Origin: Nanobdellota archaeon | GTDB taxonomy: Archaea; Nanobdellota; Nanobdellia; Pacearchaeales; GW2011-AR1 | Length of the DNA: 64,000 nucleotides | Assembly: GCA_049324275.1 (NCBI GenBank) | Contig: JBMOLG010000004.1 | Location: 29,279 to 93,278 of the forward strand | Direction: 5' to 3' | In this document: piece by piece, positions 1,539-35,989 of the stretch | Numbering within the stretch: the first letter of the stretch is position 1 | Layout: each line of letters opens with the position of its first letter | Notes under the pieces: generated by a model | What the model was told of the DNA's origin: nothing | The model's database searches: none | Seen by the model: only the letters and a program-made list of their open reading frames with translations | Position numbers and translations under genes: made by a program

Positions 1539-3002
1539 ATGAAAATTTTTGTAGGCTATCCACCGACTGAATCTGAAAAGGGCACCGCCTGCCTTCCACA
1601 AAACAGGCAATTTCAATGGTTTAGCAATCCAAGTTATTTATATCCAGTTATAATGGGAAGTGCTGCAACTATTTTGAAAGTTTCAGGTTATGATGTAAGA
1701 TGGATTGATTGCATAACTGAAAAGATTGGTGAAAAAGATTTTTTTGAATTAATTGAAAAAGAAAAACCAAACGTATTTGCATTTGAAACAAAAACTCCGG
1801 TGATAAAACAGCATTGGAATATTATTAACAGATTAAAAGAAAAATTTCCAAATATGAAAATAGTGATAATGGGAGACCATGTTACTGCTTTTCCAGATGA
1901 AACTTTAAAAAATTCCAATGTTGATTTTGTTTTAACGGGGGGTGATTTTGATTTTTCCTTGAAGGAATTAGTTCAGCATTTATATAAAAAACAAAAAATG
2001 CCAAAGGGAATTTATTATAAAAAAGGGAAGAGGATTCTAAATTCCGGAAAATTTGAACTTAAACATAAATTGGATGAAGCTCCTTTTATTGACAGGGATT
2101 TGACAAAATGGCAGCTTTATCAAACTGAATATAATATCAGCAGAAAGCCTTATTTTTACATAATGTCGGGAAGGGATTGCTGGTGGGGAAAATGCAGGTT
2201 TTGTTCATGGACAACATTATTTCCATGTTTTAGGGTGAGAAGCGTAAAGAATGTTTTAGATGAAATTGGGATTTTGATTGAAAATTATGATGCAAAGGAG
2301 ATTTTTGACGATTCGGGCACATTGACAACAGGGCAATGGCTTAAAGATTTATGCAGGGGATTAATTGAACGAGGCTACAATAAAAAAATAAGATACTCCT
2401 GCAACATGAGATTTGGAACCTTAAAACAAGAAGATTATGATTTAATGAAGAAAGCAGGTTTTAGATTACTAAAGTTTGGATTAGAGTCTGCAAACCAAAA
2501 AACTTTGGACATTTTAAACAAAGGCACAAAAGTTGAAAATATTCTCGAAGGGTGCAAGATGGCAAAAAAAGCAGGGCTGACAGTTCATTTAACAATGATT
2601 GTTGGTTATCCTTGGGAGACAAAAGAAGATGCATTAAATACATTTAGGCTTGCGAAAAGATTAATGCAGTCTGGAAATGCAGATTTGTTGCAGGCAACTG
2701 TTTTAATACCATATCCAGGCACGCCTTTATGGAAAGAGGCAAAAGAAAAAGGTTGGTTTTTATTTGATGCTTATGATTATGAGAAGTACGACATGAGAGG
2801 ACCAGTCTTAAAAGCAAAAGATTGTGATCCAAATGAGGTAGCTGAAGTTTGTGGAAAAATTTATACGATATTTTTAACCCCACAATATGTTTTGTCAAGA
2901 TTCTTAGCAATAAGAAATTTTGATGATGTAATGTTAAATCTGCGAGGAGTTTTAGCTGTTTTAGGTCATTTAAGGGATTTTGCTATCAAGAAAAATAATT
3001 AA
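1539..3002 (+). CDS. B12-binding-domain radical SAM protein (COG1032-like), paralog 1
   Basis: N-terminal Rossmann-like block (IVIMGDHVTAFPDETL..VDFVLTGGDFDF), then PKGIYYKKGKRILNS and LDEAPFIDRD. The cluster motif reads CWWGKCRFC (Cx4Cx2C), not the canonical Cx3Cx2C. TIM-barrel-like GFRLLKFGLESAN follows. Confidence 0.75.
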   Translation: MKIFVGYPPTESEKGTACLPQNRQFQWFSNPSYLYPVIMGSAATILKVSGYDVRWIDCITEKIGEKDFFELIEKEKPNVFAFETKTPVIKQHWNIINRLKEKFPNMKIVIMGDHVTAFPDETLKNSNVDFVLTGGDFDFSLKELVQHLYKKQKMPKGIYYKKGKRILNSGKFELKHKLDEAPFIDRDLTKWQLYQTEYNISRKPYFYIMSGRDCWWGKCRFCSWTTLFPCFRVRSVKNVLDEIGILIENYDAKEIFDDSGTLTTGQWLKDLCRGLIERGYNKKIRYSCNMRFGTLKQEDYDLMKKAGFRLLKFGLESANQKTLDILNKGTKVENILEGCKMAKKAGLTVHLTMIVGYPWETKEDALNTFRLAKRLMQSGNADLLQATVLIPYPGTPLWKEAKEKGWFLFDAYDYEKYDMRGPVLKAKDCDPNEVAEVCGKIYTIFLTPQYVLSRFLAIRNFDDVMLNLRGVLAVLGHLRDFAIKKNN

Positions 3003-3913
3003 CCAGATTCCAAATTTTTCTTTTCCCATCTTTTTTTAGCACCAAGCATATATTCTTCTCCAATTATCATCCATGCAAATTTAAAGAAATCTTTTACTGA
3101 GGAATAATTTTCTTCGGATTTAAAATCATACATTTGAATAGCATGAACTAATTTTTGCAAGAATTCATTTTCATTTTTAATCTTAGCAGGATCAAATGCG
3201 CTTTGCCTTATACTGATTGAGGAAATCCCAAGGTGCTCTATGACATTCCCATCAGAAGTTGCAATATATGGAATTCTATATTTATCTGCTATTTCTTTTG
3301 CTTTTATATTTCTATTTTTTGCGTAATATTTAAGGATTGGCAACTGAGAAAAAAGAAAGTTAGGCAAACATAACTGGGAGTTATGTTCTATCGCTGTTAA
3401 TTTCTTCGAATCAGAAAATTTAATGAGGAGATCTAAACCTATGCCGTTATGGTCTGTGCATAAGGCATGTTCTGCGATTACAGGAAGATTATTATCCTGA
3501 AGAAATTTAAATGTCTCATCCCAATTTTTATTGTTTGGAACTTTATTCGTGCCCAATGTTAAAATATCATAAAACCTTCCGTCTTGATAGACTTTTATTG
3601 TCTGGCTGTTTAAAATATAAGCAGTATGAGAATTTCTTTTAATCTCTAGGATATTTTCGCCAATTTTTTCATGTTTAAGATTCCCTGATCTTAGTGCTTC
3701 ATTTAATAAAAATCCAAATCTATCATGAGGGGTATGTTTTATTAGCTCATAATTAGAGCCAGAATCACTTGTTATAGCACATACCTGAATATTTTTAGAT
3801 GCACATTGACCCATTATCTCTTCCAAAATATTTTTTCCGGCATAACCACATCTATTAATCCAATAATCTTCAAAGCTTGGCAATGCGTGATAGTGCAAAT
3901 CCAGTAAAACCAT
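2999..3913 (-). CDS. PHP-domain-like metal-dependent phosphoesterase (possibly CpsB-type)
   Basis: N-terminus VLLDLHYHALPS resembles PHP/CpsB motif I (D-x-H-x-H). Later His/Asp-rich blocks (AEHALCTDHNG, ATSDGNVIEHLG). Weak call. Confidence 0.35.
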   Translation of the reverse strand: MVLLDLHYHALPSFEDYWINRCGYAGKNILEEIMGQCASKNIQVCAITSDSGSNYELIKHTPHDRFGFLLNEALRSGNLKHEKIGENILEIKRNSHTAYILNSQTIKVYQDGRFYDILTLGTNKVPNNKNWDETFKFLQDNNLPVIAEHALCTDHNGIGLDLLIKFSDSKKLTAIEHNSQLCLPNFLFSQLPILKYYAKNRNIKAKEIADKYRIPYIATSDGNVIEHLGISSISIRQSAFDPAKIKNENEFLQKLVHAIQMYDFKSEENYSSVKDFFKFAWMIIGEEYMLGAKKRWEKKNLESG

Positions 3914-3961
3914 TTTAAAATCAAATTTTAAGAATTTAAAAATATTTCTATTGTTACCATT

Positions 3962-5418: not shown

Positions 5419-5507
5419 AAGAATATCAGCTAAAAGCAGTTTATAAAAATAGTTATAACAAACGATGATTTAGCAAAGTATTTAAGTCTGATTCTCAAAA
5501 AGCTGTT

Positions 5508-6644
5508 ATGAATTATACAGTATCTAAAGAGGCTGATAAAAAGGTTGAAGATGACATCAGCATTATTAAAAAAATTATTTTGCAGGAGACAAAGCCCATA
5601 TCAATAGTATTTTTTGGAGGATTCGGGCATGGCGGAGGAAGTTTTCGAAAAATTAAAAATAAAATACTGCCAATGAATGATTATGATTTGTACTTAATTA
5701 CAAATAATAAAGTTAGTGATTCTAAATTAGAAAAACTCGGAGAAAAATGTTCAAGAGCATTAGGAAGAGGAGGAATTGAAATTGTTGAAAATTTTGACAA
5801 AGACTATGATGCAAATGAATTTTTTCATGTAGACTTACATTGTATTAGATATAAAGACCTGCAAAAATTATATCCCACACAACGAACATTTGATTTAAAG
5901 ACAAGCAAGGTAGTTTATGGCGACGAAAAAATCCTGGACAAAATTCCTAAAATAAAAATTTCAAAATCAGACGCAATACGCCTTTTATTCAATAAGCTAG
6001 ATCACTTTGCAATTGCAGAAGACAATTCTGAAATAATCAAATCAATTTATGCAGTTAAGGGATTCACTGATTTATGCTCTGCCCTGTTGATTTTCGAGGA
6101 CAAATATGCATCCAGTTATCAGGAAAGAAATATCATTTTTCAAAAATTAGATTTTCCCAAGGAATTAAAGGAATCAGTTAAAAAAGCTACCAGGGCAAAA
6201 CTTTACGAGGGGTATCATGTTGATAATGTCAATGAATTTTTTTTGCAGTCAAAAAAATGGGTTGAATGGAGCCTTAAAAAAATTTTGCAAGAGCATTTAA
6301 AAATAAGATCAGATGACTGGAAAGTTATATGCAAAGAAATGTACAAAAAATTGCCTTATATCTATTTTAATGACTATCTCAGAAGCCAATATCTATTTTT
6401 TGGACAGTATTATTTGAACCTAAAATGTTTTTCAGCGGGATTAAGAAAAGATGAATTTTTATGGAAGACTCTAACCAGATGGAGAGACTCTGGCCTTATT
6501 ATTGCAATGTCGCTGATGCTATATATGTTTAATGAAAAAAAAGAGGCTGAAAAATATCTGAAAAAATTAACAAACAAAACAAGACCTTTGAAAGATAGGA
6601 TTTTAAAAATATATTCAGTTTATTATCTTCAAAAACTAGTTTAA
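5508..6644 (+). CDS. Hypothetical protein with Pol-beta-like nucleotidyltransferase N-terminus
   Basis: VFFGGFGHGGGS followed by NDYDLYLIT matches the G-[GS] ... D-x-D pattern of minimal nucleotidyltransferases. The C-terminal half is long and helical. Confidence 0.35.
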   Translation: MNYTVSKEADKKVEDDISIIKKIILQETKPISIVFFGGFGHGGGSFRKIKNKILPMNDYDLYLITNNKVSDSKLEKLGEKCSRALGRGGIEIVENFDKDYDANEFFHVDLHCIRYKDLQKLYPTQRTFDLKTSKVVYGDEKILDKIPKIKISKSDAIRLLFNKLDHFAIAEDNSEIIKSIYAVKGFTDLCSALLIFEDKYASSYQERNIIFQKLDFPKELKESVKKATRAKLYEGYHVDNVNEFFLQSKKWVEWSLKKILQEHLKIRSDDWKVICKEMYKKLPYIYFNDYLRSQYLFFGQYYLNLKCFSAGLRKDEFLWKTLTRWRDSGLIIAMSLMLYMFNEKKEAEKYLKKLTNKTRPLKDRILKIYSVYYLQKLV

Positions 6645-6645
6645 A

Positions 6646-8046
6646 ATGAAATTCATGATTATTGCCCCGCCGAATGATTTGGATGCTACTAATAATGAAA
6701 GCACAAGCTATGACAATAGAATAACCCCATTAGATATTGCTTATATTGGAGCAGTCTTAGAAGGATCTCATCAAGTCAGAATTTTAGATGCATTAGCATT
6801 AGCATTGAATAAAAACCAAATTATAGATGAAATTGCAAAATTTAATCCGGATATTATATGCCTGACTGCTTTTGACAGATGCCGTTGGGGAATTGACAGC
6901 TCAAATAAGCTCGTAAGGCTGATAAAAAACAAAAAAAGAATTATAGGCTTAATCTGGACTTATAATTCTGATTTATTATCTGAAATATTGGAAAATAACA
7001 AGGATTATGACTTTGCTGTTTTTGGAGACCCTGAATTTACCTTATTGGATGTTGCAAATAAAAAATCTTTTAGAGATATTAAAGGCTTAGTATATAGAAA
7101 TAAAGATAAAGTTATCAAGAACAAACCAAGAGAATTGATTAAGGATTTAGATGAATTGCCCTTTCCTGCGAGGCATTTGCTTGATTTGCAAATTTACAAA
7201 AGAATGCCTCATGAATCATTAATAGAGCCTAATTTTGATATAGCGGTCACTAGAGGATGCCCATTTAATTGCACTTTTTGCTTATTGAAAGTTACGAGCG
7301 GAAAAAATAGAAGAACAAGAAGTCCTGAAAAAGCTGTTGAAGAAGTGGAAATCCTAAAAAGAATGGGTGCAAGACAAGTTCATTTTCAAGACCCCGTGTT
7401 AACATTAAATAAAGAATGGTCAGAAAAATTTTGCAATCTATTAATTGAAAAAAATTTTGGAGTTATTTGGTCTTGCCAAACAAGAGTAGATTGCATTGAT
7501 GAAAAATTGCTGAAGTTGATGAAAAAAGCAGGATGCAGATCCATTCTTTATGGCATTGAAAGTTTAGACCAAAATATTTTAGATAATATCAAGAAAGGAG
7601 TAAAGGTTGAAGACATTATAAGAATAATAAAAATAACAAAACAAATCGGAATTGAAACGAGATGTAGTTTAATGCTTGGATTGCCCGGAGAAACAAAGGA
7701 ATCATTTGAGGCAATATTAGATAAATTAATCAAATTAAGTCCTGCATTTGCGCAATTTCATGCCACTGTTGCTTTTCCTGGCACAGAGCTTTTTGAGAAT
7801 TTTGATAAGTTTGGAAGGCTCGCTGAAGATAAACATGTAAAAAAATTTGATCTTACAGGCAAGCCTTTTATTCCAAATGGATATAACAATGAACAAGAAA
7901 TCTTGGCAACCCAAAGGCATGCTTACAAAAAATTTTATATAAGGCCTTTTTTTGTATTAAAAAAAATCTTTAATTTTAAAGACATTGAAAGAAACATTAG
8001 AGGGATTAAAATAATTTTAAAATTACAAAGAAATTCTGACAGATAA
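6646..8046 (+). CDS. B12-binding-domain radical SAM protein, paralog 2
   Basis: IKGLVYRNKDKVIKN, DLDELPFPARH and TRGCPFNCTFC (Cx3Cx2C). Same block order as the other paralogs. Confidence 0.8.
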   Translation: MKFMIIAPPNDLDATNNESTSYDNRITPLDIAYIGAVLEGSHQVRILDALALALNKNQIIDEIAKFNPDIICLTAFDRCRWGIDSSNKLVRLIKNKKRIIGLIWTYNSDLLSEILENNKDYDFAVFGDPEFTLLDVANKKSFRDIKGLVYRNKDKVIKNKPRELIKDLDELPFPARHLLDLQIYKRMPHESLIEPNFDIAVTRGCPFNCTFCLLKVTSGKNRRTRSPEKAVEEVEILKRMGARQVHFQDPVLTLNKEWSEKFCNLLIEKNFGVIWSCQTRVDCIDEKLLKLMKKAGCRSILYGIESLDQNILDNIKKGVKVEDIIRIIKITKQIGIETRCSLMLGLPGETKESFEAILDKLIKLSPAFAQFHATVAFPGTELFENFDKFGRLAEDKHVKKFDLTGKPFIPNGYNNEQEILATQRHAYKKFYIRPFFVLKKIFNFKDIERNIRGIKIILKLQRNSDR

Positions 8047-8087
8047 TTTATAGAAATCTTTATTAATTAATTCTCTTGAAATGAATT

Positions 8088-9536: not shown

Positions 9537-9552
9537 ACAACTATTATAATTA

Positions 9553-12056: not shown

Positions 12057-12081
12057 TATGATTTGTTATTCGACTATGTTT

Positions 12082-13080: not shown

Positions 13081-13116
13081 AGTTAAATTTAAAATTTATT
13101 GATCTATTTAAAAATT

Positions 13117-13533
13117 ATGAAAGCTTACATAGCAGGAAAACTCTGTTCTCAGGAAGAAAGGAAATTTTTGGAAGAGATTGCAAAATTATGTGAAGAGCTT
13201 GGGCTTGAAACATTTTTGCCACATAGAGATGTAGGTTTAGCAAAAAATATTAAAGATGTTAAAAAAATATTCAGAGGAGATATTGAAGAAGGATTCAAGG
13301 ACTGCCATTTAATTATAGCAGATTTAAATGGCCTTCATGTGGGAGCAGGAACTGCATGGGAATTGGGATATGCTTATGCTAAAAAAATTCCTGCAATAGG
13401 CATAAAAACTGATGAGCCTATTGAAGATGCGTTAGATTATTTGAGTGCGATTTTAATTCATTCAATGGAAATTGTAGATTCTATTGAAAAATTAAAAGCT
13501 AGAATTAAAGAGAAGTTTAATCTAAAGGTCTAG
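13117..13533 (+). CDS. Nucleoside 2-deoxyribosyltransferase-like protein
   Basis: MKAYIAGKL... and DLNGLHVGAGTAWELGYAYAKKIP fit the family signature. ATG at 13117 is preferred over the TTG at 13099. Confidence 0.6.
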   Translation: MKAYIAGKLCSQEERKFLEEIAKLCEELGLETFLPHRDVGLAKNIKDVKKIFRGDIEEGFKDCHLIIADLNGLHVGAGTAWELGYAYAKKIPAIGIKTDEPIEDALDYLSAILIHSMEIVDSIEKLKARIKEKFNLKV

Positions 13534-14437
13534 TTGATTTTATCTCAACATTTCTCCATCCATCTGAATAAGATTTTCTCTTTTTAATATCTTTGAATGC
13601 AACATAATAAAGATAAAGGCGGGCAAAATACAATTGTATTGTCCAAAATAATTCTTGCAAATTTTCAGGATAGATAAACAAGAAATACCAGCCATATTTT
13701 ATTTCATTAAAGAAAGATTTTGTTCTTGGCATATCCGGTGCGATTTTGTTGAGATTTTCATGACCTTTAATATTTCTAGATTTTTGATTCAACCAATCTT
13801 TCCAATTATCCGGATTTTTAACATAAACCTTGGCTTTTTGAATATAAGCTATTTCAAATCCCTTTTTCCAAAATAAATAAGGAATTATGCTGTCTTCAGA
13901 TGTTTCAAGAGGAAAATCAAAAATTATGCCTTTCCTTATGGCAAATAAATAACCGGAACATTCAAAAAATTTTTTTTCTCTTGAAAGTTTTTCCCGCGTC
14001 TTGTCTATTCCTGAAAAAGCAAAATGCGCCCAATAACCATACTTTGAATTTTTTGTATCTAATGGAATCGGCTTTCCAGTAACACACCCTACTTTTTTGT
14101 TTTCAAATGCATTTATTATTTCTGAAAATGCATTATCAGAAACATAAACATCTCCATCAGTCATGATAAATAAATCGTCTCTACTATTGGAGCCAAGCTC
14201 CTGAAATAAGAGATTTAAAGCATAACTTTTACCCTCACCAGGATCAAGAAAAAAATTGAACCGTTTATCCTTTACATTTTTTTTAAAAAATTTTTCAACT
14301 TCAGGAAAAGGGTCTACGACAGTTACTCTAAAATCTTTTTTTACTTTCGAATTCAAAAAAACATTGACAGCCCTTAAAGTTGATTTCGGCTCATTGTAAG
14401 AAGTTATAATTATGTCTATCATATTATTTAACTTCAA
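13517..14437 (-). CDS. Glycosyltransferase family 2
   Basis: IDIIITSYNEPKST, RVTVVDP, GKSYALN and LFIMTDGDVYV. Confidence 0.75.
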   Translation of the reverse strand: MKLNNMIDIIITSYNEPKSTLRAVNVFLNSKVKKDFRVTVVDPFPEVEKFFKKNVKDKRFNFFLDPGEGKSYALNLLFQELGSNSRDDLFIMTDGDVYVSDNAFSEIINAFENKKVGCVTGKPIPLDTKNSKYGYWAHFAFSGIDKTREKLSREKKFFECSGYLFAIRKGIIFDFPLETSEDSIIPYLFWKKGFEIAYIQKAKVYVKNPDNWKDWLNQKSRNIKGHENLNKIAPDMPRTKSFFNEIKYGWYFLFIYPENLQELFWTIQLYFARLYLYYVAFKDIKKRKSYSDGWRNVEIKSTRPLD

Positions 14438-14615
14438 AAGGATAATCTTCTGGACGGATGATTACTATTTTTTCTTTTTCTTTTGAAGCAACTATTCTGC
14501 ATTTTTTTGTCCCTTGTTTTCCTATATCAGATAATTCAATTTCTTCAATAATTAGCACATCCGTTCCGATTTGAATTTTATCGCCTTTCTTTAATTCCCT
14601 CGCCTTTTTCTTCAT
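14424..14615 (-). CDS. Small beta-barrel protein resembling the N-terminal domain of aIF5A
   Basis: LKKGDKIQIGTDVLIIEEIELSDIGKQGTKKCRIV lines up with the aIF5A pattern LK.G..v.idG.p..Iv.is.SKPGKHG.AK.Rv. Only 63 aa, so the C-terminal OB domain is absent. Confidence 0.45.
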   Translation of the reverse strand: MKKKARELKKGDKIQIGTDVLIIEEIELSDIGKQGTKKCRIVASKEKEKIVIIRPEDYPFEVK

Positions 14616-14664
14616 AAACTAAAGATATAACTTAAACTTATAAATTTTATGAAATTAAACTTAT

Positions 14665-15348
14665 ATGAAGAATGCTATAGTTTTGTGTTCAGGTGGCATA
14701 GATAGTGTTACAACGGCTTATTACGTTAAGAAAAGATTACACTATAACAAAATTTTGATTATTTTTTTTGATTATGGGCAGAGAACAATAAAACAAGAAA
14801 GAAAAGCAAGCAAGGACTGTGCAAATAATATTAGCGCAGAATTTAATGAAATACAGCTGAGATGGCTTAGTGCTATCTCAAATTCACTCATAAACAAAGA
14901 AGAAAATAAAAAGTTTAATAAAAATTTGAAGGATACAAAAGAGGAATCAATGAGTTATTATGTGCCATGCAGAAACAGCATTTTTTTAACATACGCCCTC
15001 GCTTTTGCAGAATCACATTTTATAAAAAATAAAGAAAAATGTGACATTTTCGTCGGTTTTAAATGTGAAGGGCAAGAGCATTATCCAGATACAACACAAA
15101 AATTTGTAAATCAAATGAATAAGCTCAGCAAAATTTCATGTTCTTATCATTTTTTAGTAAAAGCTCCTTTAATTAAAAAAGACAAAGAGGATATAATCTT
15201 ACTAGGAAAAAAATTACGAGTCAATTTTAAAAAAACTTTTAGCTGTTATGTAAGTCCGAATAAAAAACATTGTGGAAATTGTCTTGCCTGCAGGCTAAGA
15301 AAGGCAGGTTTTTATTGGGCTGACGTTGATGACCCAACTGAATATTAA
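14665..15348 (+). CDS. queC: 7-cyano-7-deazaguanine synthase
   Basis: PP-loop AIVLCSGGIDSVT, FDYGQR, VPCRNSIFL, HYPDTT, and the C-terminal zinc site SCY...CGNCLACRLRKAGF. Confidence 0.8.
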   Translation: MKNAIVLCSGGIDSVTTAYYVKKRLHYNKILIIFFDYGQRTIKQERKASKDCANNISAEFNEIQLRWLSAISNSLINKEENKKFNKNLKDTKEESMSYYVPCRNSIFLTYALAFAESHFIKNKEKCDIFVGFKCEGQEHYPDTTQKFVNQMNKLSKISCSYHFLVKAPLIKKDKEDIILLGKKLRVNFKKTFSCYVSPNKKHCGNCLACRLRKAGFYWADVDDPTEY

Positions 15349-16880
15349 ACTTTATATCTAACCTTATCATACCAAATTTTAAAACTCAGGGGCAAAACCT
15401 GTCTATAAAATGGTTTCATAATTTTTTCTCTTATTGAATCATAAAATCCGACTGCTTCAAGAACAACCATACTAGGAAATTGATTATTCAAATTTCTTCT
15501 TATTACATCCTCTCGGGTCAGATATAAAAGCAATGGCCTTGGCAGCATTCCAAACCTTTTTTCGGTAACGCTTCCACGCATCAGATTCAAGATAAGATTC
15601 AAGTAAATATTTTTTCTTTTTAATAATATATGCGCCTTCCTGTCCCAATAATTCAGATGATAGGCTGAATCTTTTTCAGTTTTAATTGAGCCATCTTCAC
15701 GTGCTCTTTGATAAAGTTTAGAACCCGGAAAAAATACAAGATTATTTACAGACAAGAAATATGGCACAGGTAGTTTCTGCAGTAGTTTTATCAAGCTTAT
15801 AATGTGAATGGGCTTTTCATAAGGGTTGCAAGTTATAACATCATACATAACAGTCAGTTTATTACTGTATTTGTTTAATATTTGGGCAGCACGAATCACA
15901 TCTTCATCTAACTGGTTTCTATGATATATTTCTTTATTTGTCAATTCGCTTCCCTGTATTCCTATAATTATGTCAGTGCATCCAGCGTCGATCAAAAGAT
16001 TTATTTTTTCTTCAGTTATAGTCTTTGGGTCACCTAGACATTTAAATCTCATTTTCACTTTTTCCTTGTATAATTTACAAAACTTTTTTATGTCCTCAAT
16101 AGGACGCAAAGAAAAAGTATCATCTCTAATATCAAAATATCCTAAGGTGGGAAATCTCTTTTTAAGTTCAAGAATGCCATTAATTATATATTCAGGAGAA
16201 TGCCATCTAAGAATAGATCTTCTTTTTCCTTTATATAATTCATTAAATAAACTATTACTGCAGTAATGACAGCCGTAAGGACATCCTCTTCCTGTTAAAA
16301 AGAAGATTTCACCGCCTAAATCTTTTTCCTCAAATCTCCTTATGGCATGATTTTCTAGAATGAAATGATCTTCAATATCATAATCTGGCATTGGCAAACT
16401 GTCTAAATCTTCAACTAAATTCCTAATTTCATTTTTTATTATTCGGTCATTTTTTTTAATCCATAAATTTTTTATTTTTGAATAATCTTTTTTATTTTTG
16501 ATTGCATTAGCTAATTCGACAATTGCTTGTTCGCCTTCCCCAATACATAAAATATCATTGTCATTAATACAGGATTCTGGAGAGATTGTAACATGAACTC
16601 CACCATAAACAATTGGAATGTTTAATTTTTTCAGAAATTTAATTATTCTGTCAGCTCTTTTGGATGTTGAAGCAAATGAATTTATTCCGATTAATTCACT
16701 TTGCTTGCAAAAATTTTCAAGCTGTTTTAATTCTTCGTTTGTATAATTTCTGCTATAATTTTCACTTAAAGTCATAAAAATTATTTTAACATCATAACCT
16801 GCTTTTTTCAGCACAGAAGAAATTGTCCTTATGCCTTGATCAGATGGATAGGTAGATGTGGAGATTAATGTTATTTTCAT
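15345..16880 (-). CDS. B12-binding-domain radical SAM protein, paralog 4
   Basis: YGGVHVTISPES..ILCIGEGEQ, IKNLWIKKNDRIIKN, DLDSLPMPDYD and GRGCPYGCHYC. Confidence 0.8.
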   Translation of the reverse strand: MKITLISTSTYPSDQGIRTISSVLKKAGYDVKIIFMTLSENYSRNYTNEELKQLENFCKQSELIGINSFASTSKRADRIIKFLKKLNIPIVYGGVHVTISPESCINDNDILCIGEGEQAIVELANAIKNKKDYSKIKNLWIKKNDRIIKNEIRNLVEDLDSLPMPDYDIEDHFILENHAIRRFEEKDLGGEIFFLTGRGCPYGCHYCSNSLFNELYKGKRRSILRWHSPEYIINGILELKKRFPTLGYFDIRDDTFSLRPIEDIKKFCKLYKEKVKMRFKCLGDPKTITEEKINLLIDAGCTDIIIGIQGSELTNKEIYHRNQLDEDVIRAAQILNKYSNKLTVMYDVITCNPYEKPIHIISLIKLLQKLPVPYFLSVNNLVFFPGSKLYQRAREDGSIKTEKDSAYHLNYWDRKAHILLKRKNIYLNLILNLMRGSVTEKRFGMLPRPLLLYLTREDVIRRNLNNQFPSMVVLEAVGFYDSIREKIMKPFYRQVLPLSFKIWYDKVRYKV

Positions 16881-16904
16881 AATTCAAGGATAATAATTTA
16901 GTTT

Positions 16905-18035
16905 TTAATGCTTTTTATTAGAAACATCGTAAGCAGGGCAATGAATGCATTCCGGAGGGCATTTATTCTGGCGTATCATCTTTCTCATTTTAACATATCT
17001 TGGAGAATACCAAATCTCACGAAAAGGCTTTTGCAATGCATTTCCAATTGAAGTCCTGTGCTGCCAATCACGAACATTTGCTTCATTTTGGCCGCAACAT
17101 GGAGTCACATCGCCATCAACGAAAATAAATGGCATTATCAGTTCCTTGCAGTTATTAATGCTTGGTTTTTTCTTTAGGCTTTCTGCTTCTTTTTTTGCAC
17201 ACATATTGATTGTGATTGGTATTTTGTATTTTTTTGCTCTTGCTTTTATTTTTTTGACATATTCAGGATCAATTGAAACTGAAAATTTTTCTGCTTCTTT
17301 AAATGTATGAAGCATAGGCGTAACCAATATTTCTCCGACTTCGGTATTCAATGAATGGACAAAATCAATAAATTTAGGAATTTCATCTTTTGATTCGCTT
17401 GTTACAATATAATGAAAACTTAAAATAGGGAATCTTTTTTTCATTTGCTTTTTTAATTTTACAAATGTTCGAATATTTTTTTCAATTAAGTCATAATTGC
17501 TTCCAACACATACTTTTTCAAAAGATTTTTTAGATGCTCCGTATGTGGAGATGAACTGGAAATCGGGGCCGATTTCAATAAGTTCTCTTATCTGCTCATC
17601 ATTCTTGAAATGTGCAAAATGGTCAAAAACTTCGATAATTGTTCCTTTAGATTTGGCATAAGCCATCATTTTGTGATAATCTTTATTTGCATAAGAAGAT
17701 CCTATCCCTGTTAATCCTAGCCATTTAAGCCTTCCGAAATCATCAAAAATTTTTTTGAACTGTTCAAAAGTCATGAATTTAGATGGCTCTTTCCAATAAG
17801 TATGTTCACAACAAACACATCTGAAAGGACAAATAGTTGAAGGCTCAATTTCAAGAAATGGAGGGAATAAATCTATTCCAAATGTTGGAAGAAACTTGTT
17901 CAATATGAATGCAGCAGTTTTCCGATTCCACCATAATGGATAAACCCAAAACATGTTATATAATTCAACAAACCTTCCAGAATAAACATAATTTGAAACT
18001 AACTTAATCTTATGACTTAATGGCATAGTTGGCAT
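16905..18035 (-). CDS. Radical SAM protein with C-terminal SPASM/twitch-like Cys-rich domain
   Basis: EIEPSTICPFRCVCCEH (Cx3Cx2C). C-terminus: CKELIMPFIFVDGDVTPCCG...IGN...REIW...CPPECIHCP. Confidence 0.7.
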   Translation of the reverse strand: MPTMPLSHKIKLVSNYVYSGRFVELYNMFWVYPLWWNRKTAAFILNKFLPTFGIDLFPPFLEIEPSTICPFRCVCCEHTYWKEPSKFMTFEQFKKIFDDFGRLKWLGLTGIGSSYANKDYHKMMAYAKSKGTIIEVFDHFAHFKNDEQIRELIEIGPDFQFISTYGASKKSFEKVCVGSNYDLIEKNIRTFVKLKKQMKKRFPILSFHYIVTSESKDEIPKFIDFVHSLNTEVGEILVTPMLHTFKEAEKFSVSIDPEYVKKIKARAKKYKIPITINMCAKKEAESLKKKPSINNCKELIMPFIFVDGDVTPCCGQNEANVRDWQHRTSIGNALQKPFREIWYSPRYVKMRKMIRQNKCPPECIHCPAYDVSNKKH

Positions 18036-18117
18036 ATTAAGCTAAAAATAGGGAGGTTTATAAAGATAATTGCGATTTTCTATAAAAATTTTTAAAGTTC
18101 GAATTTAATCTAAAACT

Positions 18118-19374
18118 ATGTGGCTTTTAATTTTGTTAATAATAGTCGGCTCAATTTATTTTTTATCAATGCAGGGGATAACATGTTGCAATTCAGGGAG
18201 CACTTATGCACTTGTCAAATCTTTGGTGGAAGATAGAAAGCTTGAAATAAATAAATACATTAAGCTAACAAAATTTTTAGATTATGCTAATGTCAACAAA
18301 AAGTATTATACAGACCGTCCGCCGGGGCTTGCATTTACAGCAACTCCTTTTTATGCAATTGGCTTAAATGTAACATTAGTCTGTGTAATTGCAGGAACTT
18401 TATCCAGTGCATTAGTGTATTTGATTTCAATGCATTTAGTAAAAAATCCTTTAATCTCTTTTGCTACAGCTTTAATTTTTGCATTTTGCACTTTGAACTG
18501 GAGATACAGTACGATTTTTATAATGCATCCATTATCTACATTTTTGATCCTTATATCAGTATACTTTTTTTTACTGGGCTATCCAATCTTTTTAATAGGA
18601 TTAATTCTCGGGCTTTCAACTTTCTTTGAGTATACTGATTTTGTTTATTTTTTTGGAATAGGTTTAACAGAACTGATTACTGGGAATTTTTCAAAAATTC
18701 TCCCATTATCTATAGGATTTTTTATAGGGGTAATACCAATACTAGCATATAATAAAAGATGTTTTGGTTCGCCGTTAACTACTTCTTACAAGTATAGTGC
18801 TCATTTCAAATGGTCAAATTCATTCAAGACGACATTTATAACCCCAATATCTGAAGGAATAAAGGGCCTCTTATTTTACATTAAAAATAAAAATGGAATA
18901 AAAATTCCAGGAGGAATTTTGTTAGTGAGCCCGGTTTTAATATTCGGAATAATTGGATTTTTGTATATGCCTTTTGAGCTATTGATATTATTTTTAAGCA
19001 TTACTCTGCCTTTATTTTTGCTGATCTCAAAACATAAAACTTATTGGGCAGGAGGAGCAGGGGATTATAGATACCTGTCATCAATGATACCTTATATCAC
19101 AATTCCAATTTCCTTAACATTAAATAACTTAACATTTTTATGGCCAATAGTTCTGATACTTGCTTTAATTTCTCTGGCAATGGTTATTTTAAAAATGGTT
19201 ATTTTAACAATCTCTATAAATGATTTAAATAAAATAGAACCTGATTTGATAAAAAAGATAAAATCAGGAAATTTTAGTTTTTTAAATTTAAATGCAATGG
19301 GAAAATTTATAGCCGTAATATTTGATACATTATTCATCAGAAAAAAAAGACTTGAAAAAACTATGGGCAATTAA
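18118..19374 (+). CDS. GT-C-like polytopic membrane glycosyltransferase (PMT_2/ArnT-like)
   Basis: 418 aa, almost entirely transmembrane. YYTDRPPGLAF resembles the conserved first-loop motif of the ArnT/PMT_2 family. Confidence 0.5.
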   Translation: MWLLILLIIVGSIYFLSMQGITCCNSGSTYALVKSLVEDRKLEINKYIKLTKFLDYANVNKKYYTDRPPGLAFTATPFYAIGLNVTLVCVIAGTLSSALVYLISMHLVKNPLISFATALIFAFCTLNWRYSTIFIMHPLSTFLILISVYFFLLGYPIFLIGLILGLSTFFEYTDFVYFFGIGLTELITGNFSKILPLSIGFFIGVIPILAYNKRCFGSPLTTSYKYSAHFKWSNSFKTTFITPISEGIKGLLFYIKNKNGIKIPGGILLVSPVLIFGIIGFLYMPFELLILFLSITLPLFLLISKHKTYWAGGAGDYRYLSSMIPYITIPISLTLNNLTFLWPIVLILALISLAMVILKMVILTISINDLNKIEPDLIKKIKSGNFSFLNLNAMGKFIAVIFDTLFIRKKRLEKTMGN

Positions 19375-19375
19375 C

Positions 19376-20911
19376 ATGGAGAAAAAAATTTTATTTTTAA
19401 AAGCCAGAATTGGGATTGAAGACCCATTTCCCCCCTTGGCATTTAGTTATCTTGGAAAAATCGCTCAGGATAAAGGCTTTAAAGTTATTATTGAAAATTT
19501 AAACGCACAATATAATTCAAAAACTGATGAGGATATAGCAGAATTAATCAAAAGAGAAAATCCCGCTATTGTCGGGATAAATATACTGACCAACTTTGCA
19601 AGAGATTCTTACAAATTAATTTCTAAGATAAAGCCTGATTCAAAAATGATTATTGCAGGGGGGCCCCATTGCACAATCTGTCCAGAAGAAGTTTTAGAAA
19701 AAGGGGCAGATATAGTTTTTATAGGAGAGGCGGAAAATTCATTTGAAAGATTTCTTGACGCATTTATTGCAAATAAAAGCATTAAAAATATCAAGGGAAT
19801 TGCATACAAAGAAAAAAACAAAATGATAAAAAATAAACTTCCTGAACCATTAGACTTGAACACGCTTCCAATCCCTGATAGAGATATTCATAAAAAAGAA
19901 GATTATGTTAAAGTAAAGGAAGAAATCAATAATTTTGGGGCAGTCTTAACAAGCAGGGGATGCACAGGGCAATGCAGTTTTTGCTTTCATTCTTTGTTTG
20001 GAAAATGTTTTAGATTTAGATCTTCAGATCTAGTCATCAAAGAAATTGAAGAGTTGAATAAAAAATATGGAGTAAATTTTATTGATTTTGTCGATGATGC
20101 TTTTACTGCAAACAGAAAAAGATTGATGGAAATATGCGATTTGATAATTGCAAAAAAAATTCACATAAAATGGTGTTGTGCTTCAAGAGTTGAATTCCTG
20201 AACAAGGAAGTATTGATGAAAATGAAAGAGGCAGGATGTGAAATGGTCAGCCTCGGCATGGAGAGCAATATTCCTGAAACCTTAATTAAGACAAAAAAAA
20301 CAAGTAATCCTCAGTGGTATATACAACAAACTGAAAATGTTTTAATATGGTGCAAGGAGACTGGCATCAGAGCAGGAATAAATACTTTGACAGGATTTCC
20401 ATGGGAAAAAGCAGAGGATATTAAAAAAATGCACATTTTTATTAAAAAAATCAAAAAGTATGTTACACAAGGTTTTGATGGAGGGATTATCCAACCACAA
20501 CCAGGAACAGAAATCTACAATCAATATGCAAAAGAATACCGATTTGAAAAATGGTGGCTTGATAAGAAACCTTTATTTAAGGATAACTACCGCCCATTTT
20601 TTATTATATATTATCATAGATTTTGGGATCATTTGCATAATAATTTTTTTAGTTTTGATAAAGATGTATTCAGAGAAATAGATAAAATGTATAAGTTTAT
20701 GGGAAAATGGAATTTATATATAATTACAAAGAGAAGATTCAGAAATCCCATAAAAGTTTATGTTATTTATCAGGCATTATTCATTTTAAGCAATTTTTCA
20801 CTTTTCTTATATAAGATCTCTCCAAAATTGGAAAGAATGATCATGGAAAGAATTAAAAAATTCAGTTATAGGTTTAAATTCAGAAAAGGTACAGATAATT
20901 CGAACTTATAA
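19376..20911 (+). CDS. B12-binding-domain radical SAM protein, paralog 5
   Basis: The ATG at 19376 (MEKKILFLK) lies directly after the upstream stop, so the listed 19322 start is an overlap artefact. AGGPHCTICPEEVL..IVFIGEAEN, IKGIAYKEKNKMIKN, DLNTLPIPDRD and SRGCTGQCSFC. Confidence 0.8.
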   Translation: MEKKILFLKARIGIEDPFPPLAFSYLGKIAQDKGFKVIIENLNAQYNSKTDEDIAELIKRENPAIVGINILTNFARDSYKLISKIKPDSKMIIAGGPHCTICPEEVLEKGADIVFIGEAENSFERFLDAFIANKSIKNIKGIAYKEKNKMIKNKLPEPLDLNTLPIPDRDIHKKEDYVKVKEEINNFGAVLTSRGCTGQCSFCFHSLFGKCFRFRSSDLVIKEIEELNKKYGVNFIDFVDDAFTANRKRLMEICDLIIAKKIHIKWCCASRVEFLNKEVLMKMKEAGCEMVSLGMESNIPETLIKTKKTSNPQWYIQQTENVLIWCKETGIRAGINTLTGFPWEKAEDIKKMHIFIKKIKKYVTQGFDGGIIQPQPGTEIYNQYAKEYRFEKWWLDKKPLFKDNYRPFFIIYYHRFWDHLHNNFFSFDKDVFREIDKMYKFMGKWNLYIITKRRFRNPIKVYVIYQALFILSNFSLFLYKISPKLERMIMERIKKFSYRFKFRKGTDNSNL

Positions 20912-22560: not shown

Positions 22561-22561
22561 T

Positions 22562-24473: not shown

Positions 24474-24480
24474 TTTTAAA

Positions 24481-35988: not shown

Positions 35989-35989
35989 T

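What the first reader, a model, noticed from the sequence alone, without database searches (positions are those of the whole stretch)
1539..20911. Surface-glycan locus packed with five paralogous B12-domain radical SAM enzymes plus a SPASM radical SAM
Five COG1032-type proteins lie within 20 kb: 1539-3002, 6646-8046, 8088-9536, 15345-16880 and 19376-20911.

- They share one block order: a GG.H....PEE...D....GEGE Rossmann block, then IKGI.YK....IIKN, then LDELPFP, then the Fe-S motif.
- A sixth radical SAM with a SPASM-like Cys-rich tail sits at 16905-18035.
- They are not in tandem. They are interleaved on both strands with GT2, GT9 and GT-C transferases, deacetylases, an AlkP-family enzyme and a Pol-beta-like nucleotidyltransferase.
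- The whole set lies inside a continuous ~37-kb glycosylation locus.

B12-dependent radical SAM enzymes normally act on unactivated carbons (C-methylation, ring contraction, C-C bond formation). Examples are aminoglycoside and phosphonate C-methylases, hopanoid methylases and archaeal lipid ring or calditol synthases. Six radical enzymes in one glycan locus of a small-genome archaeon suggests a heavily C-modified sugar or lipid-linked head group with no described pathway. This is my best candidate for an undescribed system in the window.
Basis: partly seen in the sequence, partly recalled or inferred. Interest (0 to 1): 0.75.

Follow-up and report, generated by a model that had tools for sequence, protein, structure and literature searches.

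The report
Radical-SAM-rich archaeal N-glycosylation gene island
A tiny symbiotic-type (DPANN) archaeon carries a conserved cell-surface sugar-building gene island. It sits beside its protein-glycosylating enzyme AglB and holds six radical enzymes of unknown function, which probably remodel lipid-carried sugars in a way not yet described for archaeal glycosylation.

Summary
**Observation: confirmed.** Five B12-domain radical SAM (rSAM) genes and one SPASM/twitch rSAM lie exactly at the stated coordinates. They sit among GT2, GT4, GT9 and GT-C transferases, CE4 deacetylases, an AlkP-like enzyme and a Pol-beta nucleotidyltransferase.

**What I added**
- **Context:** the island is anchored on the oligosaccharyltransferase AglB, which lies about 5 kb left of the window. 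The glycan genes run to about 37 kb.
- **Paralogy:** the five paralogues are ancient, 21-27% identical to each other. R1, R3, R4, R5 and S6 each have 57-78% orthologues in other Pace-/Woese-/Nanoarchaeota; R2 has only one, at 60%.
- **Three conserved modules:**
  1. R1/R3, GT2b, deacetylase, nucleotidyltransferase and AlkP, often with a flippase-like protein.
  2. R4, GT2c and GT-C. GT2c is present in 26 of 27 loci and GT-C in 24 of 27.
  3. GT4, R5 and S6.
- **Known families:** none of the six reaches any curated family cut-off. The nearest relatives act on sugars or sugar head groups: HpnJ, AprD4, BtrN and DesII.

**Best reading (about 0.55).** The rSAMs tailor lipid-linked sugars by radical chemistry. 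The sugars are then flipped and transferred by GT-C enzymes or AglB.

**Main rival.** They modify membrane lipids instead. R3 orthologues in Thermoplasmatota have no glycosyltransferase neighbours, and one sits next to mevalonate-pathway genes.

The chemistry and the use of B12 are untested. I rate it a new variant of a known kind, of moderately high interest.

The parts
50..550 (+). C-terminal part of GT2a, a 312-aa GT2 with two C-terminal TM helices (GtrB/ArnC-like architecture). The gene starts left of the window. It is the last gene of the AglB - AglH-like - flippase-like - GT2a operon, which lies outside the window.
1000..1488 (-). GNAT acetyltransferase; a possible re-acylation step for an amino sugar.
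   Evidence: also present next to R1 in L028
1539..3002 (+). R1, a B12-domain radical SAM. It has the variant CX4CX2C cluster motif in 13 of 13 family members.
   Evidence: orthologues at 59-74% identity lie beside R3, the deacetylase and GT2b
2999..3913 (-). u304, a soluble protein of unknown function. It is the last gene of the GT2b-deacetylase-u304 operon.
   Evidence: no family hit; a weak homologue in L028
3962..4726 (-). CE4 polysaccharide deacetylase with a DUF3473 domain (DAC).
   Evidence: translationally coupled to the GT2b and R3 orthologues in L005, L002 and L028
4723..5418 (-). GT2b, a small soluble GT2 of 231 aa. It aligns over its full length, but weakly, with polyprenyl-P-GalNAc synthase PpgS, AglJ and dolichyl-P hexose transferase.
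5508..6644 (+). u378, a DPANN-specific Pol-beta-fold nucleotidyltransferase with motif GGFGxGEGS...NDYDL. Its predicted fold is closest to the aminoglycoside nucleotidyltransferases ANT(4') and AadA.
6646..8046 (+). R2, a radical SAM whose B12-like domain is weak (below the Pfam cut-off). It is the variable member: only one orthologue at 45% identity or more was found.
8088..9536 (+). R3, a B12-domain radical SAM. It is conserved at 48-75% identity across DPANN, Thermoplasmatota and anammox bacteria.
9553..10449 (+). AlkP-superfamily (phosphodiesterase/PglZ-like) soluble enzyme. It is the conserved partner of u378.
10428..12056 (-). GT-C glycosyltransferase of the PMT_2/ArnT-like type, with at least 9 TM helices.
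   Evidence: found downstream of R4-GT2c in 24 of 27 loci and near R3 in 10 of 13
12082..13080 (-). GT9 (heptosyltransferase-family) glycosyltransferase.
13099..13533 (+). Protein resembling nucleoside 2-deoxyribosyltransferase. It travels with GT9 in related loci.
13517..14437 (-). GT2c, a GT2 that also passes the Pfam cut-off for Glyco_transf_21. It is the constant neighbour of R4.
14665..15348 (+). QueC (PP-loop SGGxDS motif and C-terminal Zn Cys motif). It is transcribed against the operon and is probably a housekeeping passenger.
   Evidence: present beside R4 in 23 of 82 loci
15345..16880 (-). R4, a B12-domain radical SAM. It is the most widely conserved member: the best 120 of 829 matching protein clusters are 68-75% identical and nearly all carry DPANN labels.
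16905..18035 (-). S6, a radical SAM with a SPASM/twitch auxiliary-cluster domain. It is the first gene of the S6-R4 operon.
18118..19374 (+). u418m, a polytopic membrane protein resembling the LA_3751/LA_3752 putative glycosyltransferases.
19376..20911 (+). R5, a B12-domain radical SAM with a hydrophobic C-terminal tail.
   Evidence: orthologues at 57-60% identity always lie with GT4a and S6
20939..22123 (+). GT4a, a GT4 glycosyltransferase.
22120..25506 (.). PAP2 phosphatase (22120-22560 +), UbiA-family enzyme resembling decaprenyl-P phosphoribosyltransferase (22562-23410 -) and two SDR epimerase/reductases (23493-25506 +). Together they form a module like the one that makes lipid-P-pentose donors.
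26106..36955 (.). The rest of the glycan island: SAM methyltransferase, GT4b, LegB-like and PseB-like dehydratases, a second CE4 deacetylase, Wzx flippase, GtrA, a membrane protein resembling the LA_3751 glycosyltransferases, an AsnB-type amidotransferase and a GtrB-like GT2d.

Best explanation
The region is the core of an aglB-anchored N-glycosylation and surface-glycan island. It spans about 42 kb, from about -5.1 kb to +37 kb in window coordinates, in a Pacearchaeota-like DPANN archaeon. The six radical SAM enzymes are integral tailoring enzymes of this island, conserved in gene order.

**Proposed mechanism**
1. On the cytoplasmic face, GT2 enzymes (GT2a, GT2b, GT2c) load single sugars onto a polyprenyl (dolichyl) phosphate or another lipid.
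2. In module 1, the HexNAc loaded by GT2b is N-deacetylated by the CE4 deacetylase.
3. R3, with R1 and the variable R2, then rewrites the hexosamine ring by hydrogen-atom abstraction. Candidate reactions are deoxygenation (as in AprD4), ring contraction (as in HpnJ) or C-methylation.
4. The ANT-like nucleotidyltransferase, the AlkP-like enzyme and the GNAT add or trim substituents.
5. In module 2, R4 acts on the product of GT2c.
6. In module 3, S6 acts as a BtrN/DesII-like sugar oxidase or deaminase, and R5 acts together with GT4a.
7. The tailored lipid-linked sugars are flipped by the PF03706 flippase-like protein, Wzx or GtrA.
8. They are then transferred outside the cell by the GT-C enzymes, or as an oligosaccharide by AglB, onto surface proteins or glycans.

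**Shown versus inferred.** Shown: gene identities at domain level, conserved gene order, operon coupling and AglB anchoring. Inferred: substrates, the order of steps, the chemistry and any use of cobalamin.
For: **AglB anchoring**
- AglB/STT3, an AglH-like enzyme, a flippase-like protein and GT2a lie immediately upstream on the same contig.
- STT3 lies within 10 kb of the R1/R3 module in 7 independent R3-centred DPANN loci, plus one R4-centred locus.

**Operon coupling**
- GT2b, R3 and the deacetylase have overlapping start and stop codons in L005, L002 and L028.
- In the window, the GT2b-DAC-u304 operon is divergent from the u378-R2-R3-AlkP operon.

**Module conservation**
- In the 27 R4-centred loci of 12 kb or more, a GT2c homologue is present in 26 and a GT-C in 24.
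- Module 1 and module 3 show matching co-occurrence.
- DPANN loci average 2.6 B12-rSAMs and 3.7 glycosyltransferases per 21 kb.

**Nearest characterised relatives act on sugars**
- HpnJ is the top NCBIfam hit for R1, R2 and R3.
- AprD4 is the top PDB sequence hit for R2, R3 and R5. It is also the best whole-chain superposition of the R3 model, with TM 0.70-0.75 and rmsd about 4 A.
- The S6 profile hits the BtrN twitch domain at 9e-5 and the DesII core at 0.03.
- The u378 fold is closest to the aminoglycoside nucleotidyltransferases.

**Precedents for the logic 'GT, then N-deacetylase, then rSAM on a hexosamine'**
- HpnI/HpnK/HpnJ (PMC13459092).
- Paromamine to AprD4 (own knowledge).

**Precedents for GT2 plus flippase plus GT-C acting on lipid-P-monosaccharides (own knowledge)**
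- ArnC/D/T.
- PpgS/Rv3779.
- Haloferax AglD/R/S.

**Composition.** GC content is uniform across the window, so the island is not a recent insertion.
Against: - No biochemical data exist for any member.
- All similarities to HpnJ, AprD4, BtrN and PpgS are far below the family cut-offs. They show the fold and superfamily, not the function.
- R3 orthologues at 52-60% identity in Thermoplasmatota have no glycosyltransferase within 10 kb. One sits beside a flippase-like gene and archaeal mevalonate-pathway genes.
- Whether GT2b or GT2c uses a polyprenyl phosphate acceptor is not established.
- Cobalamin binding cannot be read from sequence, and AprD4 has the same domain without binding B12 (PMC12931638).
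- DPANN archaea are not expected to make cobamides (own knowledge).
Confidence: 0.55

Rival explanations
1. The rSAMs modify membrane lipids. Some or all of them would act on membrane lipids that the symbiont scavenges or makes. One option is a cyclitol-like or modified amino-sugar head group that stays on the lipid, in true HpnI/J/K/L style. The other is modification of isoprenoid tails or backbones, as done by Grs, Gmm, Cgm and Ted.
For: - R3 pairs with a PF03706 flippase-like (HpnL/MprF-type) protein in three phyla: DPANN, Thermoplasmatota and anammox bacteria.
- One Thermoplasmatota orthologue lies beside mevalonate-pathway genes AcnX, UbiD and a GHMP kinase.
- Thermoplasmatota orthologues lack glycosyltransferase neighbours.
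- B12-rSAMs are the known modifiers of archaeal lipids (10.1101/2025.10.20.683597; PMC13459092).
- R5, and more weakly R3, have hydrophobic C-terminal tails like those of peripheral membrane rSAMs.
- GT2c passes the Pfam cut-off for GT21, the family of ceramide glucosyltransferase.
Against: - In DPANN the genes are embedded in the aglB island, next to GT-C transferases, which use lipid-P-sugar donors.
- GT2b, R3 and the deacetylase are translationally coupled.
- Pacearchaeota lack Tes homologues and are thought not to make GDGTs (PMC8941075).
- I could make no direct sequence comparison with Grs, Gmm or Cds.
Confidence: 0.22
2. The locus makes a small molecule. Part of it would make a soluble pseudo-oligosaccharide or nucleoside-type natural product, like an aminoglycoside, rather than a surface glycan.
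For: - The nearest solved relatives are aminoglycoside-pathway or resistance enzymes: AprD4, BtrN and ANT(4')/AadA.
- QueC and an NDT-like gene lie inside the cluster.
Against: - AglB, AglH, Wzx, GtrA, the GT-C enzymes and the polyprenyl-P enzymes dominate the island.
- There is no 2-deoxy-scyllo-inosose synthase, no aminotransferase set and no exporter.
- The arrangement is a conserved lineage-wide feature of reduced genomes.
- QueC is transcribed in the opposite direction and is absent from most loci.
Confidence: 0.07
3. The rSAMs mature a peptide or protein. The B12-rSAMs and the SPASM rSAM would modify a ribosomal peptide or a surface protein (RiPP-like C-methylation or thioether formation), with the glycosyltransferases decorating it.
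For: - B12-rSAM plus SPASM rSAM is a classic RiPP pairing.
- The NCBIfam lists include RiPP methylases (ApyD, rSAM_ocin_1) at scores similar to the others.
Against: - No precursor-like small ORF, leader peptidase, RiPP recognition element or dedicated exporter lies beside the rSAM genes.
- The constant partners are glycosyltransferases, a deacetylase and GT-C.
- The S6 auxiliary domain matches BtrN best.
Confidence: 0.05
4. The clustering is coincidental. The rSAMs would serve unrelated housekeeping functions (tRNA, cofactor) and merely happen to lie in a glycan-rich region.
For: - QueC, a tRNA-modification gene, really does sit inside the cluster.
- R3 occurs alone in other phyla.
Against: - Gene order is conserved over dozens of genomes at 57-78% protein identity.
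- Coding regions overlap.
- None of the six reaches the cut-off of any housekeeping family.
Confidence: 0.03

Closest known systems
Hopanoid side-chain module HpnI (GT2), HpnK (deacetylase), HpnJ (B12-domain rSAM) and HpnL (flippase-like membrane protein), which makes bacteriohopanetetrol cyclitol ether
   Same: - It has the same four component types: a GT2, an N-deacetylase, a B12-domain rSAM and a PF03706/TIGR00374 flippase-like protein.
- HpnJ is the top curated family for R1, R2 and R3.
- HpnL aligns, weakly but over its full length, with the flippase-like protein.
- It follows the same logic: load HexNAc on a lipid, deacetylate, then apply radical chemistry.
   Different: - Scores are far below the cut-offs: HpnJ 172-212 bits against 577.6.
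- The deacetylase here is a CE4 enzyme. HpnK is, to my knowledge, of the YdjC type.
- There are no hopanoid genes, and the host is an archaeon.
- GT-C transferases and AglB are attached here, which suggests the sugar is passed on rather than kept on the lipid.
- Several additional rSAMs are present.
Aminoglycoside sugar-tailoring rSAMs: AprD4 (1,2-diol dehydratase acting on paromamine), BtrN (twitch-domain dehydrogenase) and DesII
   Same: - AprD4 is the best PDB match for R2, R3 and R5. It is also the best whole-chain superposition of the R3 model.
- The S6 auxiliary-cluster domain matches BtrN, and its core weakly matches DesII.
- The substrates are amino sugars or aminocyclitols produced by a glycosyltransferase followed by a deacetylase.
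   Different: - Identity is about 17-20%, and the AprD4 family score is 33-108 bits against a cut-off of 500.
- There is no AprD3-type partner and no 2-deoxystreptamine genes.
- The context is a surface-glycan island, not an antibiotic cluster.
Pathways that make lipid-phosphate-monosaccharide donors for GT-C enzymes: ArnC/ArnD/ArnT, mycobacterial PpgS/Rv3779, Francisella FlmF2/NaxD/FlmK and Haloferax AglD/AglR/AglS (own knowledge)
   Same: - A small GT2 (GT2b aligns over its full length with PpgS), a deacetylase acting at the lipid-linked stage, a flippase and a GT-C transferase of the PMT_2/ArnT type.
- AglD/R/S is an archaeal N-glycan precedent.
   Different: - None of these pathways contains a radical SAM enzyme.
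- All scores are far below the equivalog cut-offs.
Archaeal lipid-modifying B12-rSAMs (GrsA/B, Gmm, Cgm/Pgm, Ted) and calditol synthase Cds
   Same: - Archaeal class-B-type rSAMs that act at the membrane.
- Cds is proposed to contract a lipid-bound glucose into a cyclitol (PMC13459092; 10.1101/2025.10.20.683597).
   Different: - I could not compare sequences directly.
- The reported distributions (TACK, Euryarchaeota) do not include DPANN.
- Those genes are not described as sitting in aglB/GT islands.
TIGR04157 'glyco_rSAM_CFB', a glycosyltransferase family named for its association with rSAM genes in Bacteroidota
   Same: It shows that GT/rSAM neighbourhoods of unknown function exist elsewhere. 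GT4a hits the model weakly, at 64 bits against a cut-off of 400.
   Different: It is bacterial and also uncharacterised, and it is not a member match.

Membership tests
Class B (B12-binding-domain) radical SAM superfamily | Radical SAM core (PF04055) with a CX3CX2C [4Fe-4S] motif | tested here: met
   PF04055 scores 53-102 bits in R1-R5. CX3CX2C is present in R2-R5 and all their orthologues. R1 and its 12 orthologues carry CX4CX2C instead.
Class B (B12-binding-domain) radical SAM superfamily | N-terminal Rossmann-type B12-binding domain (PF02310) | tested here: met
   Above the gathering score in R1, R3, R4 and R5. R2 scores 29.3 bits against a cut-off of 32.1. The R3 model superposes on CysS, MgmA/QCMT, TsrM, OxsB and TokK.
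Class B (B12-binding-domain) radical SAM superfamily | Actual binding and use of cobalamin | not testable with these tools
   AprD4 and ArsL have the same domain without binding cobalamin (PMC12931638). AprD4 is the closest solved relative of R2, R3 and R5.
HpnJ (TIGR03471) | Score at or above the equivalog cut-off of 577.6 bits | tested here: not met
   R1 184.5, R2 212.2, R3 172.1, R4 67.4 and R5 125.5 bits.
HpnJ (TIGR03471) | Hopanoid biosynthesis context (shc/hpn genes) | tested here: not met
   None were found in the window or in related loci. The host is an archaeon.
BchE, AprD4, HpnR, PhpK, MCR glutamine methylase and ladderane-type B12 rSAM equivalogs | Score at or above each family's curated cut-off | tested here: not met
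   All are far below their cut-offs. Examples: BchE at most 168 against 481; AprD4 at most 108 against 500; TIGR04072 at most 116 against 360.
Tetraether synthase Tes | Homology to MA_1486-type Tes | not tested
   No Tes sequence was available for comparison. The Tes paper reports that Pacearchaeota have no Tes homologue (PMC8941075).
SPASM/twitch radical SAM | C-terminal Cys-rich auxiliary-cluster domain (PF13186) | tested here: met
   S6 scores 45.5 bits against a cut-off of 21.5. Cys296, 313, 314, 363 and 366 are invariant in 8 orthologues. The BtrN twitch domain matches at E 9e-5.
Tungsten-cofactor oxidoreductase maturase (TIGR04317) | Score at or above 380 bits | tested here: not met
   S6 scores 98 bits.
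Archaeal agl (N-glycosylation) gene island | Clustering with the oligosaccharyltransferase AglB (STT3) and an AglH-type initiating transferase | tested here: met
   STT3 (916 aa) and a PF00953 gene lie directly upstream on the same contig. The same linkage is seen in L002, L007, L008, L011, L012, L014, L028 and L085.
Arn/PpgS-type pathway for lipid-P-aminosugar donors | GT2 that charges a polyprenyl phosphate with HexNAc | tested here: inconclusive
   GT2b aligns end to end with PpgS, but at 45.6 bits against a cut-off of 370. The acceptor is unknown.
Arn/PpgS-type pathway for lipid-P-aminosugar donors | Deacetylase plus GT-C (ArnT/PMT_2-type) transferase in the same locus | tested here: met
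   A CE4 deacetylase lies at 3962-4726. A PMT_2 GT-C lies at 10428-12056 (50.9 bits against a cut-off of 26.1), with at least 9 TM helices.

The most novel reading that the evidence does not exclude
Pace-, Woese- and Nanoarchaeota would use a lineage-specific toolbox of B12-domain and twitch radical SAM enzymes to build carbocyclic, deoxygenated or C-branched amino sugars while these are still attached to dolichyl phosphate. The loci sampled here contain at least 26 subfamilies, and R4 was recovered from very many DPANN contigs. The products would then be installed on surface proteins by GT-C enzymes and AglB.

This would be the first radical-SAM chemistry in archaeal protein glycosylation, and the first at the lipid-linked monosaccharide stage in any organism. 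It would also make the symbiont's surface coat depend on cobamides supplied by the community.
Probability: 0.3. Interest if true: 0.8.

Novelty: new variant of a known kind. Interest (0 to 1): 0.62.

Why it matters
**Biology.** DPANN archaea live attached to other cells, and their surface glycans are probably the contact interface. Yet nothing is known about how their glycans are made.

**Enzymology.** This island shows that their aglB cluster routinely recruits several orphan radical SAM enzymes. R4 in particular is strongly conserved and nearly restricted to DPANN. If these enzymes tailor lipid-linked sugars, that would add a new reaction class to N-glycosylation. It would also give function to several large orphan clades of the class-B rSAM superfamily, which has more than 220,000 members.

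**Ecology.** It would imply a cobamide dependency for organisms that cannot make B12.

**Testability.** The tight GT2b-R3-deacetylase operon and the R4-GT2c-GT-C operon are small enough for heterologous reconstitution.

Tried and rejected
- **Assignment to a curated family.** NCBIfam and Pfam scans of all six rSAMs put none above an equivalog cut-off.
- **Sequence search of S6 and u378 against the PDB.** Single-sequence S6 and the u378 profile gave nothing. Only the S6 profile and the u378 structure prediction were informative.
- **Tes identity.** Rejected from the literature only.
- **RiPP reading.** No precursor-like ORF lies beside the rSAM genes.
- **Recently acquired island.** Rejected, because GC content is flat at 0.27-0.33 across the window.
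- **Structured RNAs.** Rfam found only tRNAs and a 5S rRNA outside the locus.
- **Distant R3-like loci (L034-L084, at most 37% identity).** Their neighbourhoods are too heterogeneous to inform function.
- **A conserved R3 partner in Thermoplasmatota.** I found only two local gene-order types, with unannotated neighbours of about 360 and 400 aa and a KaiC-like gene.
- **u304, u126 and u202.** No family was found even at E up to 5.
- **Literature.** Searches for an existing description of rSAM-rich DPANN or agl loci found none.

Full report
**1. Observation**

Pfam finds the following:

| Gene | Window coordinates | B12-binding PF02310 (cut-off 32.1 bits) | Other |
|---|---|---|---|
| R1 | 1539-3002 | 35.4 | Radical_SAM |
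| R2 | 6646-8046 | 29.3, just below cut-off | Radical_SAM |
| R3 | 8088-9536 | 56.9 | Radical_SAM |
| R4 | 15345-16880 | 49.0 | Radical_SAM |
| R5 | 19376-20911 | 70.3 | Radical_SAM |
| S6 | 16905-18035 | none | Radical_SAM plus SPASM |

- The five B12-domain proteins are 21-27% identical to R1.
- R1 and all 12 of its orthologues carry CX4CX2C rather than CX3CX2C.
- The 'Pol-beta-like nucleotidyltransferase' is the 378-aa ORF at 5508-6644. It has no Pfam hit. It does have the GGFGxGEGS...NDYDL motif, a confident AlphaFold model (pLDDT 92) and a fold closest to the aminoglycoside nucleotidyltransferases ANT(4') and AadA.
- Glycan genes continue to 36955. SecDF, tRNAs, a 5S rRNA and archaeal housekeeping genes follow.
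- GC content is flat across the window.

**2. Organism and wider context**

- The window comes from a metagenome contig.
- The best homologues of R3, R4 and u378 are labelled Nanoarchaeota, Pacearchaeota or Woesearchaeota.
- Reading the contig to the left of the window shows what the window cuts off. On the + strand lie STT3/AglB (916 aa), an AglH-type PF00953 transferase, a PF03706/TIGR00374 flippase-like membrane protein and the full 312-aa GT2a. The window's 50-550 ORF is the tail of GT2a.
- The locus is therefore an aglB-anchored N-glycosylation island of about 42 kb.
- STT3 lies within 10 kb of the R1/R3 genes in L002, L007, L008, L011, L012, L014 and L028, and in the R4-centred locus L085. 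The AglH-like gene is present in 12 loci and the flippase-like gene in 10.

**3. Conservation**

*R3-centred loci.*
- A genome-collection scan with an R3 alignment found orthologues at 48% identity or more in about 29 species. They fall in DPANN, Thermoplasmatota and the anammox genus Scalindua. Identity then drops sharply to 37% or less.
- Comparing every ORF of these loci with the window's ORFs shows conserved gene order in DPANN: R1, (GNAT, u304), deacetylase, GT2b, u378, (R2-like), R3, AlkP, GT-C, GT9, NDT-like, GT2c, QueC, R4.
- In L005, L002 and L028 the order is GT2b-R3-deacetylase with overlapping stop and start codons.

*R4-centred loci.*
- A metagenome scan with R4 returned 80 loci at 61-75% identity.
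- Of the 27 loci of 12 kb or more, 26 have a GT2c homologue and 24 a GT-C next to R4, often co-directional.

*Neighbour statistics within 4 kb define three modules.*
1. R1, R3, u378, AlkP, GT2b, deacetylase and GT-C.
2. A GT4, R4, (QueC), GT2c, (NDT-like, GT9) and GT-C.
3. GT4a, R5 and S6.

*Variability.*
- Most DPANN loci also carry extra, divergent B12-rSAM and SPASM-rSAM paralogues. The mean is 2.6 B12-rSAMs, 0.5 SPASM rSAMs and 3.7 glycosyltransferases per 21 kb.
- 155 B12-rSAMs fall into 26 clusters at 45% identity.
- The window, with five plus one, is at the rich end of a recurring and variable theme.
- The R4 family is large and tightly conserved. The best 120 of 829 matching protein clusters are 68-75% identical. 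Nearly all are labelled DPANN, and two are labelled Patescibacteria.

**4. What the enzymes resemble**

- No curated family is reached. HpnJ is the top model for R1-R3, at 172-212 bits against a cut-off of 577.6, followed by BchE.
- Against solved structures, AprD4 is the best sequence match for R2, R3 and R5. AprD4 is a B12-independent 1,2-diol dehydratase that acts on the glucosamine ring of paromamine.
- AprD4 is also the best whole-chain superposition of a confident R3 model (pLDDT 91; TM 0.70-0.75; rmsd about 4 A). The cobalamin-dependent enzymes CysS, MgmA/QCMT, TsrM, OxsB and TokK have comparable E-values.
- The N-terminal domain of R4 aligns with the cobalamin domains of TokK and CysS.
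- A profile of S6 orthologues matches the BtrN twitch domain (E 9e-5) and, weakly, the DesII core (E 0.03).
- These are all weak, superfamily-level similarities. They do point the same way, toward rSAMs that act on amino sugars or cyclitols.
- A recent review stresses that AprD4-like proteins carry the Rossmann domain without binding cobalamin (PMC12931638). B12 dependence is therefore unproven.

**5. Mechanistic model**

*Module 1.* It has the same parts list as the hopanoid module HpnI (GT2), HpnK (deacetylase), HpnJ (rSAM ring contraction) and HpnL (flippase-like) (PMC13459092). HpnL aligns over its full length, though weakly, with the flippase-like protein. It also matches the pathways ArnC/ArnD/ArnT, PpgS/Rv3779 and Haloferax AglD/AglR/AglS, which make lipid-P-monosaccharide donors for GT-C transferases (own knowledge). 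GT2b aligns end to end with PpgS, at 45.6 bits. I therefore propose these steps:
1. HexNAc is loaded on a lipid phosphate.
2. It is N-deacetylated.
3. R3, R1 and R2 tailor it by radical chemistry.
4. The ANT-like nucleotidyltransferase, the AlkP-like enzyme and the GNAT edit substituents.
5. It is flipped across the membrane.
6. A GT-C enzyme transfers it.

*Modules 2 and 3.* R4 acts on the GT2c product, and S6/R5 act with GT4a. The island also contains a module of PAP2, UbiA and two SDRs that resembles the mycobacterial route to decaprenyl-P-ribose/arabinose, plus Wzx, GtrA and a GtrB-like GT2d. These fit an organism that decorates its surface through several lipid-linked donors.

*Status.* Gene content, gene order, operon coupling and AglB anchoring are shown. 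Substrates, chemistry and cofactor are inferred.

**6. Main rival**

R3 is not tied to glycosyltransferases outside DPANN.
- Thermoplasmatota orthologues have no GT-like neighbour within 10 kb.
- In a Thermoprofundales-type contig, R3 is followed by a flippase-like gene and by the archaeal mevalonate-pathway genes.
- In the anammox loci, the flippase-like gene directly precedes R3 within a cluster of rSAMs, methyltransferases, SDRs and, in the Scalindua locus L017, a GT2.
- The link between R3 and the flippase-like protein therefore spans three phyla, though only in part of the loci.

This keeps open a membrane-lipid substrate, either head group or tail, by analogy with Cds, Grs, Gmm, Cgm and Ted (PMC13459092; 10.1101/2025.10.20.683597). 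R5 also has a hydrophobic C-terminal tail. Against this rival, in DPANN the genes sit in the aglB island with GT-C partners, and Pacearchaeota are reported to lack Tes (PMC8941075).

The RiPP, small-molecule and coincidence readings are weaker. Their evidence is set out under the rival explanations.

**7. Novelty**

I found no description of rSAM-rich DPANN glycan loci or of rSAMs in archaeal N-glycosylation. A 2024 review of the field never uses the word 'radical'. The kind of thing is known: a glycan biosynthesis island with tailoring enzymes, and rSAM tailoring of amino sugars in natural products and hopanoids. The new variant is the combination of several orphan class-B and twitch rSAMs embedded in, and conserved with, an archaeal aglB/GT-C island.

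**8. Verdict**

Interest is 0.62.

Noticed in passing
window 22120-25506: A PAP2 phosphatase, a UbiA-family enzyme and two SDR epimerase/reductases lie together. The UbiA enzyme scores 159 bits against 'decaprenyl-phosphate phosphoribosyltransferase' (cut-off 234) over its full length. The set resembles the mycobacterial route to the lipid-linked pentose donor (Rv3806c, Rv3807c, DprE), here in an archaeon.
   Followed up: partly
window 1539-3002 (R1) and its orthologues in L002, L005, L007, L008, L011-L014, L028, L118: The whole R1 family uses a CX4CX2C radical SAM cluster motif (13 of 13 members). The other four families use the canonical CX3CX2C.
   Followed up: partly
L016, L018-L033, L166 (Thermoplasmatota); L017, L168 (Scalindua/Brocadiaceae): R3 has orthologues at 48-60% identity in Thermoplasmatota and anammox bacteria, followed by a sharp drop to 37% or less. 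This suggests horizontal transfer of one well-defined function. In the anammox loci it sits in a cluster of five or more rSAMs with methyltransferases and SDRs, directly after a PF03706 flippase-like gene.
   Followed up: partly
L166 9612-13431: In a Thermoprofundales-type contig, archaeal mevalonate-pathway genes (a GHMP kinase, UbiD-type decarboxylase, LpdD and AcnX) lie about 2 kb downstream of the R3 orthologue and its flippase-like neighbour.
   Followed up: no
window 14665-15348 and 13099-13533: A bona fide-looking QueC and a nucleoside 2-deoxyribosyltransferase-like gene are each transcribed against the surrounding glycan operon. QueC has the SGGxDS and CGNCLAC motifs and scores 145.8 bits against a cut-off of 150.3. 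Both are kept at these positions in many related loci (QueC beside R4 in 23 of 82). They could be passengers or participants.
   Followed up: partly
L089, L090, L094, L118, L121, L123 (between the S6 and R4 orthologues): Related loci carry a 625-635-aa protein between S6 and R4. It fuses a sugar-1-phosphate nucleotidyltransferase (N-terminal GGxGxRL motif) to a GT4-like C-terminal half. It is absent from the window, where S6 abuts R4.
   Followed up: partly
L071 (Patescibacteria MAG), also L062, L079: A candidate-phyla-radiation bacterium has a comparable cluster of three B12-rSAM-like genes interleaved with GT4, GT2, GT-C and AsnB homologues. rSAM-rich glycan loci may be a shared trait of ultra-small episymbionts.
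   Followed up: no
window 34114-35988: A full-length AsnB-type glutamine amidotransferase/asparagine synthase lies inside the glycan island, next to a GtrB-like GT2. It may amidate a uronic acid.
   Followed up: no
window 51980-53931: A tyrosine recombinase (XerC/D or phage-integrase family, 53095-53931) lies next to a short ORF with a serine-recombinase fragment (51980-52534), about 15 kb right of the glycan island.
   Followed up: no
window 40374-43242: Three tRNA genes (Gly-TCC, Arg-CCT, Leu-CAA) and a stand-alone 5S rRNA gene (43131-43242) lie together, with no 16S or 23S rRNA nearby.
   Followed up: no
window 16945-17310 (+): A 121-aa ORF lies antisense inside S6. It is almost certainly spurious.
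   Followed up: no
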